From Ministeria vibrans ATCC 50519 (taxonomy: Eukaryota > Protista > Filasterea), in the NCBI GenBank assembly GCA_943704425.1, contig CALSCP010000439.1, positions 1 through 58,615 on the forward strand: a stretch of DNA of 58,615 nt, written 5' to 3'. The notes beneath the pieces are model-generated. The model was not told where the DNA came from. It saw nothing but the letters and a program-made list of their open reading frames with translations, and did not search any database. This document shows positions 8,791-55,400 of this stretch, in pieces. The stretch's first letter is position 1, and each line of letters starts with the position of its first letter. The position numbers and the translations under genes were made by a program.

Positions 8791-9760
8791 TTGNNNNNNN
8801 NNNNNNNNNNNNNNNNNNNNNNNNNNNNNNNNNNNNNNNNNNNNNNNNNNNNNNNNNNNNNNNNNNNNNNNNNNNNNNNNNNNNNNNNNNNNNNNNNNNN
8901 NNNNNNNNNNNNNNNNNNNNNNNNNNNNNNNNNNNNNNNNNNNNNNNNNNNNNNNNNNNNNNNNNNNNNNNNNNNNNNNNNNNNNNNNNNNNNNNNNNNN
9001 NNNNNNNNNNNNNNNNNNNNNNNNNNNNNNNNNNNNNNNNNNNNNNNNNNNNNNNNNNNNNNNNNNNNNNNNNNNNNNNNNNNNNNNNNNNNNNNNNNNN
9101 NNNNNNNNNNNNNNNNNNNNNNNNNNNNNNNNNNNNNNNNNNNNNNNNNNNNNNNNNNNNNNNNNNNNNNNNNNNNNNNNNNNNNNNNNNNNNNNNNNNN
9201 NNNNNNNNNNNNNNNNNNNNNNNNNNNNNNNNNNNNNNNNNNNNNNNNNNNNNNNNNNNNNNNNNNNNNNNNNNNNNNNNNNNNNNNNNNNNNNNNNNNN
9301 NNNNNNNNNNNNNNNNNNNNNNNNNNNNNNNNNNNNNNNNNNNNNNNNNNNNNNNNNNNNNNNNNNNNNNNNNNNNNNNNNNNNNNNNNNNNNNNNNNNN
9401 NNNNNNNNNNNNNNNNNNNNNNNNNNNNNNNNNNNNNNNNNNNNNNNNNNNNNNNNNNNNNNNNNNNNNNNNNNNNNNNNNNNNNNNNNNNNNNNNNNNN
9501 NNNNNNNNNNNNNNNNNNNNNNNNNNNNNNNNNNNNNNNNNNNNNNNNNNNNNNNNNNNNNNNNNNNNNNNNNNNNNNNNNNNNNNNNNNNNNNNNNNNN
9601 NNNNNNNNNNNNNNNNNNNNNNNNNNNNNNNNNNNNNNNNNNNNNNNNNNNNNNNNNNNNNNNNNNNNNNNNNNNNNNNNNNGGGGGGGGGAAGGTGTGG
9701 GGTGTGGGTGGGTTGTTGGTGGACAATATCGGTGATCGGTGGAGTAGGGAGGGAGCTTAC

Positions 9761-12405
9761 TCGCGAACAGAAGAGACGTCCCATGCTCCAATGGGCTGGT
9801 TGAAGTCCGCTGCGTTTTGAAACATGCTCTCCATGGTCGTCACGCGACTCGTGTCCCATGCGCCAATAGATGCGTTGAACTTGCTGTCTGAAAACATATT
9901 CTTCATTGAAAACACCTAAGCAACAACAGAGACGGATTCAACAACAGACGGATTTTGGAGGGATAAGCCAGAGTCAAACCGTTTGGCCGGGTGCTCGACC
10001 CCTCTTACGTTGCTTGTATTCCATTGATGGAGGTCTCGATTGAAGTTTGAAGAAGAGAACATACTCTCCATTGTACCGCACTACACGTCAGAGAGAGAGA
10101 GAGAGAAAAGAAAAAGGGAGAAAGGACAACGTGAGAAAAGAAAGAATGGGAAAAACACAAAGTGATAGGGGGAGAAAAATAGAAGAGAGGGAGAAATAAT
10201 GTAATGGAGAAAATTAAAGAGAGAACAAAGCGATAGAGAAAGCGGAGTGAGAGAAGAAAAGAGTGATATGGATTCGCATGCAGTGCATCTGTCGCTTACA
10301 CTGTGTGTATCCCACGCGTTGATTTCCTGATTGAACTCAAACGTGTCAAAGAACATGAATGCCATGGTCGACACCTAAAAGGGGGGGGGCATGAGACAAA
10401 ACGAAAATGATCAAAACACTTTTTTTTTTGGCTCTGCCTGTTTTAGTACCATTCCTGTGTTGAAATGGGCGAGAGCTTGATTGAAGAGGAAAGCTTCCTG
10501 GAACATGGCAGCCATAGATGTTGCCTGAGAAGGAGGAAAAAAACACACAACGCGTGCACGTGAGCCATGGACACACCCCTTTTCATTTAGTTTTTTCGTC
10601 ACTCACTGATCTGGTGTCAAAGTCAAGCGGATAATTGAAAGTGGACGCTTCGTAGAACATAAACGAAAAATCAGACACCTAAGACACGCAGAGTACACTT
10701 TGATCAAAAGAAGCAAAACAACAGCAAAGAAGAAGAAGTACCTTTGAGGTGTCCCATGAGCCAAGAGCGCTACTGAAGGACGCCGCCTGGTAGAACATGC
10801 CCTGCATGGTCACAACCTAAAAAAGATTGTTATTTCCTCCTGACACCCAGCGCTTACATATATTTATCATCGTTATTATTATTATAATTAATAATAACTT
10901 ATATATAACACAGATACTCACCACTCACACCACAAAGACACACAAAGACCAAATACACACAAAGATACACACACACACATTGTACATTTCCTGTGTTCCA
11001 TTGATCCAACGGCTGATTGAAAGCTGTCGCCAAATGGAACATATAGTCCATATGAGTCACCTGAGCGAGTCAAAGACGAACACGTATTAGGGGGAGACAA
11101 AACACTTGTTATCCCTTACTTGGCTGACATCCCAGGCATTAAAGTTGCCTTGTGTGTCGACGCCCGACTCCTTAAATGCGGCCGTAAGAGTCGTCGTACC
11201 AAGTAGGATAGGCTGGTCTGTCGCTGTGATCTTGAGGTTGGTGCAGCCCTCAAAGTAGCCGCCGCTATTGCCCAGTTGCAGCGGGCCCCACGCATCCACC
11301 GAGACAATCAACGAGGCATACTCATTGGATTGGAAAGACCAGCCGTCAATGATGCCCGTTACTTCGACGACATAAAAGCCAGTCATCGAGTACATGTGTG
11401 ATGCGTTGGGATCGTTGTACGCTGACACGGACACGGTACCACTGCCGTCGCCATAGTTGACTGAGAAATTGTAGTTGCTACCAGTTGAACCAGGGATAAT
11501 TAATGAGAAGAGATTCCAAGGAAATTCCAAGAGAAGACATTTCCAATAATGGAGAAAACGGTGACAAAAAAACAATTAAATTATTAATAATTATTATTAT
11601 TTAATTACCCGTCTGAGCGGAGAGGAAGAGCAATGATGCCACCTGCTGGAGTGGACCAGGTCGTGATGAAGCTTGTGAGTGGGGTTTTCACGGTGATGCT
11701 GAAGGTGCACTCGGCACTGCGACCGATCGAGTCGGTCGCCAGATAAGTGACACGGGTCGTGCCCACTGGAAATGCTGTGTTGTTTGTGTGACTCACAGAG
11801 AGCGAAACGGAAGTGTCATCCATTACAACGGGGTCTTCCCAGGTCGCCACAGCCGACACGGTGGTCCACAAAGTCTGATTTCGGGGACATCCCGAAGGGA
11901 ATTGTGGGGGTGTCGAGTCGATGGTGCAGGAAATGTTGAAGAGACAAAGACCGCGACGAGTGCCGCCGTCGCCGAGTGCGACCAGGAAGACGGGCGTGAC
12001 GCCCGCAGGGAAGAGTGTCACGCTGGAGGTCGCCGAAGACACCCACTCACTCACTGCCTCGCCGCTAGCGGCGGTAGGCAAGGTCCACTCGGCGAGGCAG
12101 TGCGAGCCATCGGTGAACAAGGTCTGCGATAACGGGCAATTGTCGAGCGCAATCAGAGTGGCGGCGGCGCACGAGCCCTCCAGAGTCTCCATCCTTGTCA
12201 CAAGCTCGGATATCATTGTGCCACACATGGCCTCTGTGGCAACCGCCTCGCCGTTCTGCGTCAACCGGCCGAGAACGGTGACATTGCCGCCTGTGTCAGG
12301 TGCGAGGATGACGCTCCCATCAACACTATATATCTCTGCCTCTCCTTGCACTCCCAAGGCGACTCCCAGTAGCACAACAAGTGCTAGCGGCGCGCAGCGG
12401 AGCAT
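9761..12405 (-). CDS. Secreted/surface protein: signal peptide, cubilin-N-like coiled-coil module, 2x HYR, PKD-like cap, DUF285/BspA-type 25-aa repeats; 3' end in gap
   Basis: Exons 12405-11609, 11477-11120, 11060-10986, 10816-10742, 10678-10607, 10524-10450, 10374-10300, 10080-10009, 9915-9761; all GT-AG and in frame. HYR: DSTPPQFPSGCP..FPVGTTRVTYLATD..CTFSITV. Repeat consensus V.TM..MF..A..FNQ.L..W(D/N)T. Confidence 0.9.
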
Positions 12406-46400: not shown

Positions 46401-49400
46401 ACGAATAACCATTCACCTGGTCAGTGCAAGTGCCGCCGTTGGAACACGGCAACGAAAGGCACTCGTCGATATTGGTCTCACACCGAACACCCTGGTAGCC
46501 ATCGATGCAAGAACAAGCATACAAGTCGACACCGTCCACACAGGTGCCGCCGTTGGTGCATGGCGACGAAGCGCACTCGTTGATGTCCGACTCGCACTGG
46601 ATGCCAGTGAAGCCCGGAGGGCACGTACACTGCCAGAAGTCACCGGTGGAGTCCTGGTCGCAGGTGCCGCCGTTGCTGCAAGGCGACGAAGTACACTCGT
46701 TGATGTCAGTCTCACACATGACGCCGGTCCATCCGGTCACGCAAGTACACTGCCAAAAATCGGGTGTCGCACCCTGGTCACATGTGCCACCGTTGGAGCA
46801 TGGTGATGAGGCACACTACAAGGTAGTAGAAGAAGAAAAAGGATCAGAGACAGAGAGAAACGCAGGAACTGTCATATTCTTCCTGTTTTACCTCATCAAT
46901 GTCAGTCTCGCAAACGTCACCGGTAAATCCGGCGTGGCAAAGACACAGAGGCTGCGCGGTCGAAAAATGCACGTGGGGGCCAATGTAAAGACTAGCGCCG
47001 ACGGTGCCGGTCAGTGAAGTGGAGTCGATGTTGCTGATGAAGTTGAGCACATTGGTGAAGCGGAAGCCGCGAGTGATCGAGCTCGTCGACTCCACAGTGA
47101 ACTGGTTGCTAATGATGTAGCCATCCGAGGTCATGGGGAACTTGGCCTGGATGGTGTACACAGAGTTGGCATTGACAGTGACGCGGGGCGACAGGAACGT
47201 CTTGAGGATCTTAAAACCCTCGGGCGACGTCTCAGAAGGACCCGAAACGAGAATGGTCGCCTGAGCGACAATGGCGCCGCCAGTCAGGACCGCAACCTCG
47301 TGGGTTTGAGTCACGTCAAAAATGGCGTTAGAGGGCACGTAGAGGGCCAGGAAGTCGATGTCCTTGGTGACGGTAGGCTGGAACTCATAGCCTACAATGA
47401 CGTTCTCGCTCGCGGAGCTCGAGGGCTGCGAGGTGATGAGGGTCTCCACAAGAGGGCCAACGTTGATCTCAGTCGGTTGGCATGTGCCAGCGTTGGTACA
47501 AGGGNNNNNNNNACAATGACGTTCTCGCTCGCGGAGCTCGAGGGCTGCGAGGTGATGAGGGTCTCCACAAGAGGGCCAACGTTGATCTCAGTCGGTTGGC
47601 ATGTGCCAGCGTTGGTACAAGGGTTTGAGTTGCACTACGGAACGAAGAAATGAGTTCGTACAAAACAAAATTGACGACGCTAACGTTACCTCCGAGACGG
47701 GAGACTCGCAAATGTCGCCGGTAAAGCCAGCCGGACAGATACATTGCCAGAAGTTCGCCATGAGCCCTTGGCTACACAGACCTCCATTGAGACAGGGTTC
47801 CGACAAACACTAAGCACAAAAAAATTAATAATCATTAATCTTTCCTAATGACGAGGAAAAAATACAATCGGGTACCTCGTTGGTGTCAGTCTCGCATTGG
47901 TCGCCGGCAAACCCGATAACGCAAGTACAGTCGTAGAGGTTGGGTTGGTTTCCCTGGCTGCAGGTGCCACCGTTGCTGCAGGGCGACGAGTCACACTCGT
48001 TGATGTCTGACTCACACTGCGTGCCGGTGAAGCCAGCGGCACAGCTGCACTGCCAGAAGTCGTACGAGGAGCCCTGGTCGCAGGTGCCGCCGTTGGTGCA
48101 CGGCGACGAGTCGCACTCGTTGATGTCCGACTCGCACTGGATGCCAGTGAAGCCCGGAGGGCACGTACACTGCCAGAAGTCACCGGTGGAGTCCTGGTTG
48201 CAGGTGCCGCCGTTGCTGCAAGACGACGAGGTACACTCGTTGATGTCAGTTGCGCACATGACGCCGGTCCATCCGGTCACGCAAGTACACTGCCAGAAAT
48301 CGAGCTGGCTGCCCTGGTCGCATGTGCCACCGTTGGAGCACGGCGACGAGTCGCACTCGTTGATGTCGGATTCACAGGTCACACCGGTGGAGCCCGCAAC
48401 ACATTCGCAGGTGAAGCCGTCGAAAAGGTCGATACAGGTGCCGCTGTTGGTGCATGGCGACGAGGCGCACTCGTCGATGTTGGTTTCGCAGTGTTCACCG
48501 GTGGTGTACGAATGACACGAGCAAGTGTACTGGTCTGGAATGACATCGCCACCAAAGATGGCATTAGGGCCGAAGTAGGTTGTGGCCGAGAACGAACCGA
48601 AGAAGTAGGGGTTGTGGGGATCCTGGAGGTGTGGATCAAAAGCATTCAAAACAAACAGCTTGTGGCCTTCGACAAAGTGGATGCCACGCTGGTATGTGAA
48701 GATGTTGGAGGCAATCCAGTGGTCGTTGGCACCAACATTCTTGTACACAGCCTGCAGCGTGTAGGTCTCGCCAGCAACAAGGGACACCGGCGACGAGAGC
48801 GTCTCGTAGTGGAACTCTCCATCAATGCTGTTGGGCGGATCGGCAAAATCCCGAACGACCGACGAGTTGCCGATAGTGACGTTGGCAAGGAGGTTGAACG
48901 CTGAGTCGAACAGGCCAACATCGTGTGTCTCTGTCAGCATGTTGGGGTTGGTCCAGTGCAGACCGAGGTGGCTCACCGAGCGGCCCGCGTACACATTGGT
49001 AAACGTGTAGCCTGTAAGCACTGCGATATTGGACGCACTCTCTTCTTGGCCGGTCTCCCAGCCGGTGGCCACGGGCTCGTTCGCGGCCGAATCGGGCGTG
49101 CAAGTGCCGTCGTTTGTGCATGGACTCGACTCGCAACCGTGTAACTCGATTTCGCAATGGTCTCCCATGTATTCGCTTGAGCAGCTGCACGTGTACGTGT
49201 TGATGCTCGTCGTGACGCACATGTCACCAGCGACGCCAGGTGTATTGGCAATGCGGTCGGTGGCGCGACCGCTGCAGTTGCACTTGAAGCACTTGAGCGA
49301 GTCACCGTTGGCGTCGAGGACGTAGCCTGCGGAGGGGTTGCCGTTGAGCCAGCCGAGCACCGCCTGGTTCGTAGGCATGCCGTAGTAGCCATCCTCGCAG

Positions 49401-52400
49401 CTGTCGCACTCCATGCCCGTCGTGTGTCCCAGGCAGTTGGTGCACGTGAGCGCACCCGATTCCTGCTTGGCCGCACAGTTGTTCTGGTTCGACCTCTGTT
49501 CAATGTTGTTGTTGCAGATGCACGGAATGCACGGGTAGAAGTCGTTGCCTTTGCAGCCAATCGTCGTCGAGTCGTCGGCAATGAGCAAGTCGTTGCCCGA
49601 GTTGTCGGCGCACACGGCCGGACGGCCAAAGTAGGCCATGTTGTTGCAGGCGGCGCACTGGCGATCCGACTCGTCGTAGGCAACGCCCGAGTAGCCCTGC
49701 ATGCTGGCCGGATCGTGACGCGGGCAGTTGCAACGAATGTAGGCGCTGTGGTCGGCCGAGCCCTGGAGCGTAGCAATGGCAGTGGCGTCGAGGAGCGACT
49801 CGTCGAGCACGCAGCGTGTGGACTGCGCGAGACCATTCTCAAAGGCACACTTGAGGTAGGCGTCGAGCGCGTTGGGGAAGTTAGCCTGGAACGAGTTGTA
49901 GGCGTTGGGCACGCCGGTGCTGGCCGCGTCCACGTAGTGGTTGCATTTGCACGGCACACAAGGAATGCCGTCGGCGGGGCTGCCGTAGTAGCCGGCGTCG
50001 CACAGCTCGCAACGGAAGCCATGCGTGTGCGCCGGGCAGTTGGTGCACATACCCGAGTCGGTGACACACTCGTTGTTGCCCGTGCCAAAGCACTGCTGCT
50101 CGCACGGACGGCAGGCGCTCGTCACCGTGTCCATGTTGCAGTTGGTACCGTCAACGAGGTCGCACGCGCGACACACGTCGGCCGACGCGTCAAAGCTGCC
50201 GGCCATGTGGCGGAAGTAGTTGGCCGCACACGTCTCGCACTGGCCCTGCGGACCGTTGACGGTCCAGTTGCCGCACTGGTGGCACACAGAGCTGTAAGGG
50301 TCGCAGATGCCGTCGCCCGAGTTTGCGTCCGCCTTGGAGTGACCATTGCAAAAGCACGGCGAGCAGTTCTCAAAGCGGATCGCCTCGGACTGCGCGGCAT
50401 CCGGGTTGGTGCCATCGGAGTCGGCGTTCGGGTAGAGGTTGTGGTTGTCGCGGTAGTTGGAGGCAATGCACTTTTCACAGCGGTTCTCAGCGCCATTCTC
50501 CGTGTTGTCACCGCAGCCGGAGCACACACCAAAGTTGCTGCAGGTCGACGAGTGGCCGTAGCAGGCGCACGGGGCACAGTCAACGCCGTTAGTCGCGTCT
50601 CCCCGGGTGCTCCAGGTGTTCACCTTGCACGACTCGCAGTTGAAGCCTTCCGAGTTGGACACGCCCGTGCACGTGCACTCACCGCCTACGGGGTTGCAGA
50701 AATCCTCGCCAGTCGCGTCAGTCGTTGTGGCATGGCCATTGCAATCACACTGGGTGCAGTTGTGCGCAAGATTGACAGCGTTCACGCCAACGAAGGGACG
50801 GTAGTAGCCAGCGTCACAGCCACCGCAGTTCTGACCGTCGGTGTGGTCGTTGCACGGCTGCGGGTTACCATTGTAATTGAGCTCGCAGCTGCCTCCGAGC
50901 ACGGCGCACTCGTTGAAAGCGTACGACTTGTGACCATTGCACTGGCACACGAGGCAGACAGAGCCATTGCGCGCACCGCCCGCCTCGTTCCAGTAGCCAA
51001 CCTGGCAGGCTTCGCAGTTGTCGCCCATGACTTGATCATCCGGGTCACAGTTGCAGAGACCACCCTTGGGGTTGCAGACGGCCTTGGTGCCCGCGGCCCA
51101 GCCATGATCAGGGTACTCGATGGCGAGACCGTGCTGGTTGCAGGCGCACGGCTGGCAATCGTCAGTGAGGTCAACGTTGCCCTGGGCGTCGACGGGGCGG
51201 AAGAAGCCGGGCACGCACAGTTTGCAGTGCTCGCCCATGGTGTTTCCATCGCACGGCAGCGCGTTGCCGTTGCGGTCAAACTCACAGTGACCACCAGTGG
51301 TGTGGCACTCGTCCTGGTTGTCACTGTCCGTGTACTTCTTGTGGCCGTAGCACTGGCACGCCTGGCAGTTGACGCCGTTGGTCGAGTCACCCTGGGCGCT
51401 CCAGTAGCCGGTCTCGCAGAACTCGCAGTGGGGACCAACGGCGTGGTCACCGGGAGTGCAGTGGCAGCCGCAGAAGTCCTTGTCACAGGTGTCGGCACCG
51501 CTGCTCGTCTTCACGACGGCGTGCAGGTTGCAGTCGCAAGCGGTGCACACCTCCTCGCGGCACACCTCGTAGGCGAGGCGACCCTCGGTGGCGTCGCACG
51601 AGGCACGGCAGAAACCGTCGACGCAGGTCTCGCAGCTAAAGCCCTTGGTGTTGGTTGAGGCCTCGCAGCGGCACTCGCCCGTGTCGAAAGCACAGCCCTC
51701 GGGGCAGTTACGCTTGTCCGAGTCCTCGCACAGGTCGAAGATGGAGTGGGTGTTGCAGGTGCAGGGGATGCAGGGGCCCGTGGGCGGGAAGAAGACCTGG
51801 AATTGGTCGGGACGGGTGGCACCCATGGCGCCCGACAGACCGTTGTAGGTGAAAGAGCCGGCCTCGATTTCGACGGGGGTGATCTCGGGCAGAAGGGGAC
51901 CGTCGCACTTGTGGTTCTCATCCTCGCTCTCGCAGTTGAACGACTCGACGGGGCTATCGTTCTGGATTTCGGCACGGTAGCCGGGCTGGCAGAACTGGCA
52001 CGAGGTACCCGTGGTGAAGTGACCGCAGTCCTGAACAATGTCCTTACTACCGCTCTCCTCGACGAAGCAGAATCCGGTGTTGGTGTCGCAGGTGCGCGAG
52101 TGACCGTTGCAAAGGCAGTAACCGGTGACACGCAGCTCACGCACCGAGTAGTAGCGGTAGCGCACATCACCAAAAGCACTCATCTGGGCAAAACGCACCG
52201 AGATGTAGCGCCAGCCAAAGTTGGCAGGCTTGTCAAGAACCTCACGGGTGTAGCCCTCGACGAGGAACTCAATGTCGCACGCCTTTCTGTTGAAGGCGCT
52301 CACACAGGTGGTACCCTTGGTGAAGACGGGGCCGCCGGCCGGGTCGTACTGGTTCTCAGAGCCAGTCAGATCGATCCACGGCTCGCTCTCATTGTTACGC

Positions 52401-55400
52401 ACCCAGAGTTCGAGACGGGAGATGAAGGGCGACGAGTCGGCCTGACGGTTGGGCTTGGGCAAAAACGACGCCAGCGGGTTCTGGAAGGGACCGGTGCCGG
52501 ACGGGACGGGAAGAGGGTAGTTACCGAGACGCACGGTGAGCGTCGAGATGCCGAACTCACCGAGAAGATCGAGTTCCAGACGGCGGTAGGTGGGGCGCAG
52601 ATCGAGGTTGGTGCACTCGAGAACGTTCTCGGCGATCTGCGCGGCGTTAGTGGGGCCGCAGCGGAGCGACGCCCACTCGTTAAGATCCGAGGCGGAACCA
52701 GCAACGTTGAGGTTGGCATCGGTGAGCCAGAACTCGCGGTCGGTCGAGTGAGCAAAGGCCGTGGCGGACACGGCGGCGTCAATGGAGAACTCCCACTCGC
52801 TCGTGGCCGTGTTGTACAAGGCCTTGAGGCAACGATTGTTGCTGTTGTGGACGCACAGCTTGACACGATCGGTGGCAACGAAGGGAAGATCCTCGGCGGC
52901 CGGGTCGGCGACCGTGGCGGCAATGACATCCCACAGGGCGGTGTCGTCGTTGGTGGCGATGCGACCACCACCAAGGTACTCGACGGTGGCGGACGAGGCG
53001 GTGTCGTGGTGGGTGAGGAAGGCCTTGATGGACGCCTGAATGGTGGTGAAGCCAGGGTTGACGGGTGCCGTGGACATGGGGCAGAAGTTGTTGGAGCCGG
53101 TCATGGTGGTGAAGACACCGCAGGTGCCGGCAACGGCACCGGCCGCACCGAGCGCCGCGATGAGCTGTGCGGAGGTGACAGCCTCACCGGAGATGACGTT
53201 GCGAGCGGTCACGACGACATTCTGGGGGTTGTTCTGAGCGGTGATGGTGGCCGAGATGATGTTGATGGCGACATTTGTGAAGCCACCGTGAGCGAGAAGG
53301 GCATTCTTGACAATGGCGATAAATTGCGACTCGAACGTGGCCGCGTTGGAGATGAACGAGTTGGTGAATGTGACCTTGACATACTGATCGGTGAGGGTCC
53401 AGTACGTGTCGACACCGGCCGTGTCGAGGGCGTCAAGGTCGATCTGATAGCCCGAGGCGTCGATGATGCCTGCGAGGTAGTCGCGGTGGTCGGGGTCGGT
53501 GCTGACCACACGGAACATGGAGACCTTTTGGTCCTGGAAGTTGCCATCGCTCGGGTACGACCAGTAGTTGGAGACCTTCTTGCCAAAGGCAAGGTTCTCA
53601 ATTTTGGTGTTTTGCAAGAGAATGTACTCACCGGCGTCAAAGGTGAAGATGATTTCTTGTGAAACGACCACAGTGCCATTGGAGGCAACGGCACGGACGC
53701 GGAACTTGATGCTTCGGTAGGAGGAGACGATGCTACGAATGGTGAGTGTAATGAGACGGAGCGCCGGAATGTTCTGGAGGTTGACGAGGCCGGCCGAGAC
53801 GAGGTTGCTCTGGTCGACGTCCTCCCAGTTGGTGTCCTCGAGGTTGGCCACCTGGTAGGTGAACGACTGGAGAGTGTCGTACTCGTTGACGGGGTCGGTG
53901 CTAGCCTGGACGTTGTACGAGTCACCCTCGGCAAGATCGGTGGAGGGCGCCGTCTCGGAGAGCTTCACGGTGAAGACGACAGGCGAGTCGCATGTGTAGG
54001 ACTCTATGCCATCGTGACAAATGTCACCATTCTGACACGGGTTCGAAGCGCAGTCATCAATGCTGGTCGAGCATGTGGTGTCGGTGAAGCCGCTGACGCA
54101 GTTGCAGGTGTACGAGTTAACACCATCGTTGCAGCTGGCACCATTCTGACACGGGTTCGAAGCGCACTCGTTGATGTCAGTCTCGCAATGCTTTCCCGTG
54201 TAACCGTTGCCGCAGACACACGTATACGTGTTAGCGCCATCAGCACATGTGCCACCGTTTTCGCAAGGGTTCAAGGCGCAATCGTCAATGTCAATGGTCT
54301 CGCAGTTATCACCGGCAATGCCATTGACGCAGGTACAATCGGTGATGGACTCGATGTTAAGACGAATGTTGATCACAACGGCGTCACCAAGATAGGGAAA
54401 GTCTGGCGCAATGGGAGTGAGTTTGTCTTTGCCAGGCGGAGTGCACGGTTCGGCGGAGATGTACGAAGTGCCCGTCTCAAAGTGGGCGTCGCCGTTGATG
54501 GTAAAGAACACATGGGCGTTTCGCCCGGAGAGGGTGGGGCTGTCGAGCTCGGCGACAATGTAGTCGCCGCACGTCACCGTGACCGGGCTAGGAAGAGCCA
54601 CCGAGTGGTACTGTTCGCCGGCGAGGTAGGCGGTCTGGAGCGTCGTGAGTGGCACGGTTGCCTCAGACAGCGTCGAGAGTTGTGAAAAGGCAGGAGTGCC
54701 AACATTTCCAGCGGCAATGGAAGACAGACGCAGGGTGAGAGTCTTTCCAGACACGTCACCGTCTATGCTCTGAATGCCAAACTCAATGTGAGTAACATCA
54801 ACGGAAGTACCACTGTAGTTGGCGTCGCCACACGGCTCGTAGATGCGGAAGAGACGGTTGGCGAACGTGTGCGACCCAGAGCCGCAGCTCACACCGCGAA
54901 ACACGTTGAAATCGGAGAAGTCGGTTGCTTGGTTCTGGAAGAGCACGGCCGCGTCACCACCGCTGCAAGTGCCGCCGTTGAGGCAGGGCGTCGCATTGCA
55001 CGATCCAACGAACGTGTCGCACACGTTGCCACCGTAGCCTTCGGAACACACACAAGTAGCTCCACTGCAGCTTCCGCCGTTTGCACAGCCAGTTCCAGGG
55101 CAGGTGTTGTCACGGCGTTGGCGCTACGAAAGAATTAGCGTGAGTGCGTTATGGAGCAAACGAGAAAAGGAAAAGTGCACTGAGACGATTTCGTATTGCC
55201 ACAGGGCATGGAATAGTTAATAGTTCAATAATCAATAAGGATGTAAAGGTAGGAGCAACTGACAAGAAGTCAGAAAAACGAATAGCCTGTGATCAGCGCA
55301 TAATAAAAAACTAAATGAACGAAGCTGTCAATCAAATAAAGACGAAGAAGGGCTTCCCAGTTCCCATCATGCCTTAATGATTAGGTATACCCAATTACAC

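What the first reader, a model, noticed from the sequence alone, without database searches (positions are those of the whole stretch)
9761..11120. DUF285/BspA repeats encoded one per exon, all phase 0
Seen: seven consecutive GT-AG introns fall at the identical repeat position (after W(D/N)Txx, before V). They give six single-repeat exons of 75, 75, 72, 75, 75 and 72 nt: VTHMDYMFHLATAFNQPLDQWNTGN / VVTMQGMFYQAASFSSALGSWDTSK / VSDFSFMFYEASTFNYPLDFDTRS / ATSMAAMFQEAFLFNQALAHFNTGM / VSTMAFMFFDTFEFNQEINAWDTHS / CGTMESMFSSSNFNRDLHQWNTSN. A two-repeat exon follows. The ORF track largely misses this. Established: DUF285 is mainly a prokaryotic surface LRR-like repeat. Inference: an acquired repeat gained an intron and was amplified as a symmetric cassette. 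Any exon can be skipped, duplicated or exchanged between paralogues without frameshift, which is a potential combinatorial receptor-diversification system analogous to exon-per-repeat LRR/TPR genes.
Basis: partly seen in the sequence, partly recalled or inferred. Interest (0 to 1): 0.78.

Follow-up and report, generated by a model that had tools for sequence, protein, structure and literature searches.

The report
Bacterial repeat gene, one exon each
A protist gene for a predicted secreted protein carries prokaryote-type DUF285 repeats, six of them each on its own small exon, and RNA assemblies confirm the splicing; the layout was likely made long ago by copying one intron along the array, and nothing found here shows it being used to vary the protein.

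Summary
Seven consecutive phase-0 GT-AG introns sit at one repeat position, giving exons of 75/75/72/75/75/72 nt. RNA-type contigs from two studies splice them as predicted, while DNA-type contigs keep the introns. The gene reads signal-like N-terminus, HYR, PKD-like cap, then at least nine PARCEL/DUF285 repeats, and runs into an assembly gap. 'All phase 0' holds only for these seven: the introns on either side are phase 2, the downstream one off register.

The diversification idea is unsupported. The main contig keeps every exon, the introns share no similarity, no stray repeat exons occur, and no variant lies in a repeat exon. The repeats are more diverged (0.39) than 54 of 57 comparison arrays. 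At least two paralogues likely exist; their introns could not be read.

The intron site is the repeat's strongest built-in AG|GT site, and an unrelated eukaryote-like contig has one intron at the same site (L080). One-repeat-per-exon arrays are known for LRR and TPR genes. I found no DUF285 case in papers or in this scan's notes; the scan noted the same layout for other repeats.

The parts
11609..12405 (-). Exon 1 (797 nt): ATG at 12405, hydrophobic signal-like N-terminus (judged by eye), about 140 unassigned residues, HYR domain, start of the PKD-like cap
   Evidence: HYR E 1e-13; covered by RNA-type contigs
11478..11608 (-). Intron, 131 nt, phase 2
   Evidence: joint in 4 of 4 runs and in X5
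11120..11477 (-). Exon 2 (358 nt): PKD-like domain plus the cap that precedes DUF285 arrays in prokaryotes
   Evidence: PKD weak, E 0.026; 6172 clusters at E<=0.001; up to 50% identity to prokaryotic loci
11061..11119 (-). Register intron 1, 59 nt, phase 0
10986..11060 (-). Single-repeat exon 1 (75 nt)
   Evidence: DUF285 E 2.6e-6
10817..10985 (-). Register intron 2, 169 nt, phase 0
   Evidence: bridged by contiguous record coordinates (table 8)
10742..10816 (-). Single-repeat exon 2 (75 nt); the only one that ends in AG
   Evidence: DUF285 E 3.3e-5
10679..10741 (-). Register intron 3, 63 nt, phase 0
10607..10678 (-). Single-repeat exon 3 (72 nt), degenerate
   Evidence: no Pfam hit alone; PSSM 32.9; both flanking joints seen
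10525..10606 (-). Register intron 4, 82 nt, phase 0
10450..10524 (-). Single-repeat exon 4 (75 nt)
   Evidence: DUF285 E 0.0017
10375..10449 (-). Register intron 5, 75 nt, phase 0
10300..10374 (-). Single-repeat exon 5 (75 nt)
   Evidence: DUF285 E 0.0005
10081..10299 (-). Register intron 6, 219 nt, phase 0
   Evidence: bridged by X4 record 9; low-depth intronic contigs in X1 and X3
10009..10080 (-). Single-repeat exon 6 (72 nt)
   Evidence: DUF285 E 0.00026
9916..10008 (-). Register intron 7, 93 nt, phase 0
   Evidence: an unspliced contig at depth 12 against 103-109 in X2
9761..9915 (-). Two-repeat exon (155 nt) with no intron at the internal repeat boundary; ends 8 nt into a ninth repeat
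   Evidence: DUF285 E 3.4e-17; TIGR02167 30.9 bits against cut-off 30; loose end at 9761
9683..9760 (-). Start of the next intron, phase 2, off register; runs into the gap
8794..9682 (.). Assembly gap (889 N) that hides the 3' end; RNA-type contigs carry about 480-920 further nt

Best explanation
This is an expressed gene for a predicted secreted or surface protein whose prokaryote-type DUF285 array has seven introns at one repeat position, likely because a single intron entered at the repeat's built-in splice-like site and was long ago copied from repeat to repeat. Shown: the exon layout, the splicing, the domain content, and that the site before the conserved Val is the repeat's commonest AG|GT site. 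Inferred steps: (1) a PKD-cap-plus-PARCEL module came from a prokaryote or virus and was fused behind a signal peptide and a HYR domain; (2) one intron was gained at Lys/Gln-Val (AG|GT); (3) in-register recombination between repeats, by unequal crossing-over of an exon-plus-intron unit or by gene conversion, spread it over seven neighbouring boundaries; (4) copying then stopped, the introns lost all likeness and the repeats drifted apart; (5) today the exons are spliced constitutively into one main mRNA for a single fixed binding or adhesion protein. Its ligand is untested; bacterial prey or substrate surfaces are a guess.
For: Splicing as predicted in 5 of 5 RNA-type runs from two studies, with a main contig that keeps every exon it spans. 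Eight introns flank or cut about 600 nt of repeat coding sequence, against one in the upstream 1155 nt, and the window has stop-free frames of 2.4-7.3 kb, so something repeat-specific multiplied them. Only about 10% of units carry AG|GT at the site under host codon usage, so seven neighbours are easier to get by copying than by separate gains. The site holds 38% of all AG|GT in 567 prokaryotic units, 26% in 506 viral units and 70% under host codon usage. L080 has one 67-nt intron at AAG|GT at this very site, and removing it opens the frame. Age: no intron-intron similarity; repeat identity 0.39, with 3 of 57 comparison tracts as low. Prokaryotic type: 545 of 667 matched stretches in prokaryotic genomes encode relatives of exon 2.
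Against: The single-repeat exons are no closer to each other than to the repeats of the intron-less exon (the highest pair, 0.52, involves the last repeat), so no cassette clade is visible. Relatives already carry long arrays (57 tracts of 6 or more units in 40 of 60 sampled proteins), so amplification is not needed to explain repeat number. Only 1 of 7 upstream exons still ends in AG. The tree gave no donor. The C-terminus, hence anchor or secretion, is in the gap. Both folds were low in confidence.
Confidence: 0.58

Rival explanations
1. The introns arose separately at the repeat's AG|GT site. In an array once homogenised for Lys/Gln-Val, any two in-register AG|GT copies can serve as donor and acceptor, so whole repeats were turned into introns. 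This gives phase 0 and one register without any exon-plus-intron cassette.
For: If gains are confined to AG|GT under host codon usage, 7 of 7 at this site has P 0.08 and at least 7 of 8 has P 0.26. L080 shows a lone intron at the site among otherwise intron-less repeats. Two introns measure 75 and 219 nt, one and about three repeat lengths. The mechanism is described for Drosophila genes (PMC2891723, passages).
Against: No intron resembles a repeat (best z 2.5 among 56 pairs). Five of seven lengths do not fit whole repeats. Only 1 of 7 exons ends in AG. With a looser AG|G preference P falls to 3e-6 or less.
Confidence: 0.27
2. The array is an active diversification device: exons are skipped, duplicated or swapped among paralogues to make a repertoire of surface receptors, as proposed for brown-algal ROCO genes.
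For: All six exons are frame-neutral. At least two paralogous PKD-cap modules appear in RNA-type and DNA-type runs at host-like depth. The repeats are highly diverged at non-core positions.
Against: The dominant contig keeps all exons it spans in 5 of 5 RNA-type runs. No spare or inverted repeat exons occur in the window, unlike Ectocarpus (PMC3341825, passages). The introns are not homogenised. 0 of 5 listed variants lie in repeat exons across runs dated 2011-2025, which may all be one strain. The paralogues match only over 41-44 nt at 80-89%, so they are old.
Confidence: 0.1
3. The module was inherited vertically from the archaeal ancestor of eukaryotes and not acquired sideways; the introns are old insertions.
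For: Many of the 79 nearest prokaryotic loci are Asgard archaea, including 18 Promethearchaeota rows.
Against: The query alignment held an archaeal sequence (P0184), which biases that sample. The window row falls in no supported group. The family is patchy and mobile (PMC2996958, sections 5 and 8) and common in viruses (94 of 100 matched stretches).
Confidence: 0.05

Closest known systems
PARCEL/DUF285 repeat proteins (PF03382, TIGR02167; Roske et al. 2010, PMC2996958; passages and sections 5 and 8 part 1 read)
   Same: Tandem 24-25-residue repeats, each of unique sequence, in a protein with a membrane-targeting-like N-terminus; the same PKD-like cap as in many bacterial and archaeal proteins.
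   Different: Here the array is cut by spliceosomal introns at one register. The paper's main text has 0 occurrences of intron, exon or splic-, and its eukaryotes are green algae and diatoms. The repeats here are more diverged than most arrays.
Ectocarpus and Saccharina ROCO LRR and NB-ARC-TPR genes (Zambounis et al., PMC3341825, passages; Teng et al. 2024, PMC11378527, abstract)
   Same: One repeat per phase-0 exon of 72 nt or similar; frame-neutral for skipping or duplication.
   Different: Those are large intracellular receptor families with spare and inverted repeat exons in introns, recombination between recent duplicates, positive selection and reported alternative splicing. None of these was seen here; selection was not tested.
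[quoted passage not shown]
   Same: A protist repeat array with one intron phase and register, read as clonal expansion of an exon-plus-intron unit.
   Different: Thousands of genes, phase 2, young families that keep nucleotide similarity, and a linked retrotransposon; here one visible gene with unrelated introns.
[quoted passage not shown]
   Same: The intron site is an AG|GT site that the repeat array supplies in tandem.
   Different: No footprint of repeat sequence remains in these introns, so the mechanism is possible but not shown.

Membership tests
PARCEL/DUF285 | Match to the family profile | tested here: met
   PF03382 in 6 of 7 repeat exons, 2 of them above the gathering score when scanned alone; TIGR02167 above its cut-off on the two-repeat exon
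PARCEL/DUF285 | Tandem array of about 25-residue units | tested here: met
   8 contiguous units, five of 25 and three of 24 residues, in the spliced model
PARCEL/DUF285 | Dyad symmetry of the coding sequence | tested here: inconclusive
   unit against its own reverse complement, z from -1.0 to 3.0 over 8 units
PARCEL/DUF285 | Membrane-targeting sequence | tested here: inconclusive
   hydrophobic N-terminus judged by eye, no predictor run; C-terminus in the gap
BspA/TpLRR (PF13306 LRR_5) | TpLRR profile match | tested here: not met
   no LRR family at E<=1 for any of 9 exons, scanned singly
LRR-like solenoid fold | Structural match to solved LRR proteins | tested here: inconclusive
   no PDB sequence hit; single-sequence model of homologue P0193 had mean pLDDT 45.8 and no Foldseek match at E<=0.001
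Exon-shuffling receptor arrays (ROCO-LRR, NB-ARC-TPR type) | One repeat per frame-neutral exon | tested here: met
Exon-shuffling receptor arrays (ROCO-LRR, NB-ARC-TPR type) | Spare, inverted or inactivated repeat exons in introns | tested here: not met
   six-frame motif scan and 25-residue PSSM scan of the window found only this gene's exons and one unrelated weak motif hit; the gap was not readable
Exon-shuffling receptor arrays (ROCO-LRR, NB-ARC-TPR type) | Alternative splicing of repeat exons | tested here: inconclusive
   no skipping joint in 5 RNA-type runs, but contigs drop rare forms
Exon-shuffling receptor arrays (ROCO-LRR, NB-ARC-TPR type) | Recent paralogues that differ in or share repeat exons | tested here: inconclusive
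   only short 80-89% matches to the cap region among 26 of 125 pieces shown; no genome held
Exon-shuffling receptor arrays (ROCO-LRR, NB-ARC-TPR type) | Positive selection on exposed repeat residues | not testable with these tools
   no orthologue found; repeats about 50% alike in DNA
Exon-shuffling receptor arrays (ROCO-LRR, NB-ARC-TPR type) | Attached signalling domain | not testable with these tools
   none in the visible 585 residues; 3' end in the gap

The most novel reading that the evidence does not exclude
A bacterivorous protist took a mobile prokaryotic repeat module, fitted it with one intron per repeat and expanded it into a family of surface receptors whose exons are skipped or traded among paralogues, giving a repertoire for recognising bacteria. 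The repeat's own AG|GT site would make DUF285 arrays turn into exon cassettes again and again wherever they enter an intron-making genome.
Probability: 0.1. Interest if true: 0.75.

Novelty: new variant of a known kind. Interest (0 to 1): 0.36.

Why it matters
If the module came in by transfer it arrived without introns, so every intron here would have been gained inside a eukaryote. That makes the gene a clean case for asking how repeat arrays come to have one intron per repeat: by copying a cassette, or by repeated gain at a built-in AG|GT site. The second same-site intron in L080 suggests the test can be repeated across lineages. As biology of the protein it adds little yet: no ligand, no sign of diversification, and the layout itself is well known for LRR and TPR genes.

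Tried and rejected
No whole genome is held, so paralogues could not be read. Exon skipping: no such joint in X1-X5, although minor unspliced contigs at about 3-12% of the main depth did appear; contigs cannot show absence. No DNA joint deleting a repeat exon was listed in X7 or X8; the three DNA joints listed join two AT-rich intron stretches and look like mis-placed simple repeats. X6 holds a small share and is not used as evidence of habitat. Orthologue searches found none: exon 2 gave 2 hits among 849 candidates, best 44%; exon 1 gave 7 HYR-type proteins; the metagenome scan confirmed 0 of 167 stretches; the Atlas gave no hit for residues 20-160. A pattern for a TAG acceptor directly before a repeat gave 1 viral and 16 metagenome loci. 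Of these 17, only L080 is an intron; the rest are in-frame TAG in intron-less repeats or chance matches. The pattern misses CAG acceptors and degenerate repeats (it finds 2 of the window's 7), so it does not measure how common such genes are. DNA for the dinoflagellate homologue P0165 was not on record. P0193 is an intron-less ORF, but its contig may be cDNA. The cap-domain tree (81 rows, 117 columns, quick search only) was unresolved. Both folds were low in confidence and the fold search was uninformative. The first identity comparison (0.40 against a median of 0.57 in 130 tracts) used a strict pattern that favours canonical units; the PSSM version narrowed the gap (0.39 against 0.50) and is the one to trust. 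Lineage of the host was not tested; 'unicellular holozoan-like' is only an impression from its EGF and laminin-EGF genes. Literature: searches showed no paper on introns in DUF285 genes, judged from listings; 40 of 54 DUF285 papers were listed. Supplements were not read.

Full report
Observation. The minus strand at 12405-9761 holds nine exons that join into 585 codons without a stop. Six consecutive exons of 75, 75, 72, 75, 75 and 72 nt each encode one repeat and are separated by seven GT-AG, phase-0 introns of 59, 169, 63, 82, 75, 219 and 93 nt, all at the boundary before the usually conserved Val. Uniform chance for seven introns at one of 75 positions is 5.6e-12. Pfam finds DUF285 in 6 of 7 repeat exons, HYR in exon 1 and a weak PKD in exon 2; NCBIfam finds the PARCEL models. 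No TpLRR family was hit.

Expression and splicing. Eight of nine listed runs hold the stretch or a part of it. Contigs of X1-X4 (one study; RNA status is the tool's guess) show joints at 5 of the 7 register introns and at the upstream intron in all four runs. The other two joints were filtered at simple repeats, but X4 record 9 is contiguous across both (32 of 48 pieces shown). X5, from a second study, shows the same six joints, and the DNA-type runs X7 and X8 keep the introns (26 of 125 pieces shown). In all five RNA-type runs the contig leaves the window at 9761, so the next intron is phase 2 and 8 nt off register; read by hand, the loose end continues the repeat. About 480-920 nt of transcript lie in the 889-N gap. 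No skipping joint was listed, while minor unspliced contigs (depth 4, 6.5 and 12 against about 100) were; contigs can still lose rare forms. The five variant positions listed are one intronic, two missense in exon 2 and two upstream of the ATG; none is in a repeat exon.

What the protein is. It reads: hydrophobic signal-like N-terminus (by eye), about 140 unassigned residues, HYR, PKD-like cap, and at least nine PARCEL repeats. The cap-plus-repeat module is widespread: 6172 clusters at E<=0.001, and 545 of 667 matched stretches in prokaryotic genomes, at up to 50% identity, across Asgard and DPANN-type archaea, Bacteroidota, Myxococcota and others. The repeats also occur in viral contigs (94 of 100 stretches), Durusdinium and Aureococcus. 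A eukaryote-like protein, P0193, joins EGF domains to the same module as one open frame. A quick tree placed the window's domain in no supported group, so no donor can be named. Transfer from a prokaryote or virus is inferred from the patchy distribution (PMC2996958, sections 5 and 8 part 1; DUF285 exchange between a virus and its algal host is noted in 10.1101/2024.10.30.620910, passages). Folds were uninformative.

Paralogues. At 80% likeness, X5, X7 and X8 hold other contigs that match only 41-44 nt of the cap's most conserved motif, with 5-8 mismatches. Their loose ends, read by hand, continue as two different homologous caps, and their depth (173-270) is like that of the gene itself (180-318). 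So at least two old paralogues likely exist in this genome. A co-cultured organism is not excluded, and their introns could not be read.

Is the array young or active? The introns show no similarity to each other (best off-diagonal z 2.9) or to repeats (best z 2.5). Repeats are about 50% alike in DNA and 0.39 in protein; 3 of 57 comparison tracts, from 40 of 60 sampled homologues, were as low, against a median of 0.50. The single-repeat exons are not closer to each other than to the repeats of the intron-less exon. No spare or inverted repeat exons occur in the window. This differs from Ectocarpus ROCO genes (PMC3341825, passages; PMC11378527, abstract) and from young Tetrahymena LRR genes (PMC6564038, passages).

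Why this position? In intron-less repeats the boundary before Val is the commonest AG|GT site: 38% of all AG|GT in 567 prokaryotic units, 26% in 506 viral units (tied there with one other site), and 70% when the prokaryotic units are recoded with the window's codon usage. A scan for a TAG acceptor before a repeat gave 17 loci; one, L080 (34% GC, tandem DUF285 genes), has a single 67-nt GT-AG intron at AAG|GT at the same boundary, and removing it opens the frame. It has no RNA support and its organism is unknown. Separate gains confined to AG|GT would give 7 of 7 with P 0.08, but with a looser AG|G preference P is 3e-6 or less. Only about 10% of units carry AG|GT there and only 1 of the 7 exons still ends in AG. 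Copying of one intron along the array is therefore preferred (0.58) over repeated gain or intronisation of whole repeats (0.27; mechanism in PMC2891723, passages). The sequences are too diverged to separate the two.

Verdict. A real, RNA-supported one-repeat-per-exon array in a PARCEL/DUF285 gene. Searches of the paper library (listings, except where passages are named; supplements unread) and of this scan's notes showed no DUF285 case, but 35 notes hold the words for the same layout in other repeat families (8 shown). It is a new variant of a known kind. The receptor-diversification reading is not excluded but has no positive support (0.10). Interest 0.36.

Noticed in passing
L080:1958-2024: An AT-rich contig with three tandem DUF285 genes; one has a single 67-nt GT-AG intron at the same repeat boundary (AAG|GT) as the window's introns, while the other repeats are uninterrupted.
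   Followed up: partly
L079, L085-L087, L092, L094, L095: DUF285 arrays with repeated in-frame TAG, several at positions where Gln or similar is usual; looks like TAG recoding in phage-like contigs. Not tested.
   Followed up: no
L096:2-2443 (P0193): Eukaryote-like protein with signal-like start, two EGF domains, PKD-like cap and DUF285 array as one open frame: a parallel fusion of the same prokaryotic module.
   Followed up: partly
window:8230-8640 (+): A gene that looks like a glutathione S-transferase N-terminus (label recalled, not confirmed by a call) runs toward the same gap; its 3' end and the DUF285 gene's must both fit there, so the gap may exceed 889 nt or the 3' ends overlap.
   Followed up: no
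window:12403: In run X3 the contig starts with 30 letters that are not in the window (best match 21 of 30): an alternative 5' end, another allele or a chimera.
   Followed up: partly
window:40498-46815 and 47825-55123 (-): Two adjacent stop-free frames of 2105 and 2432 codons with many EGF repeats; one has laminin-type EGF domains, the other a likely membrane helix. They may be parts of one giant gene, and their repeats have no introns.
   Followed up: no
window:32411-37720 (+): BRCA2 homologue in one 1769-codon frame, with several near-identical BRC-type repeats.
   Followed up: no
window:14509-15726 (-): PfkB kinase region followed by an SIS domain in one frame, an apparent fusion.
   Followed up: no
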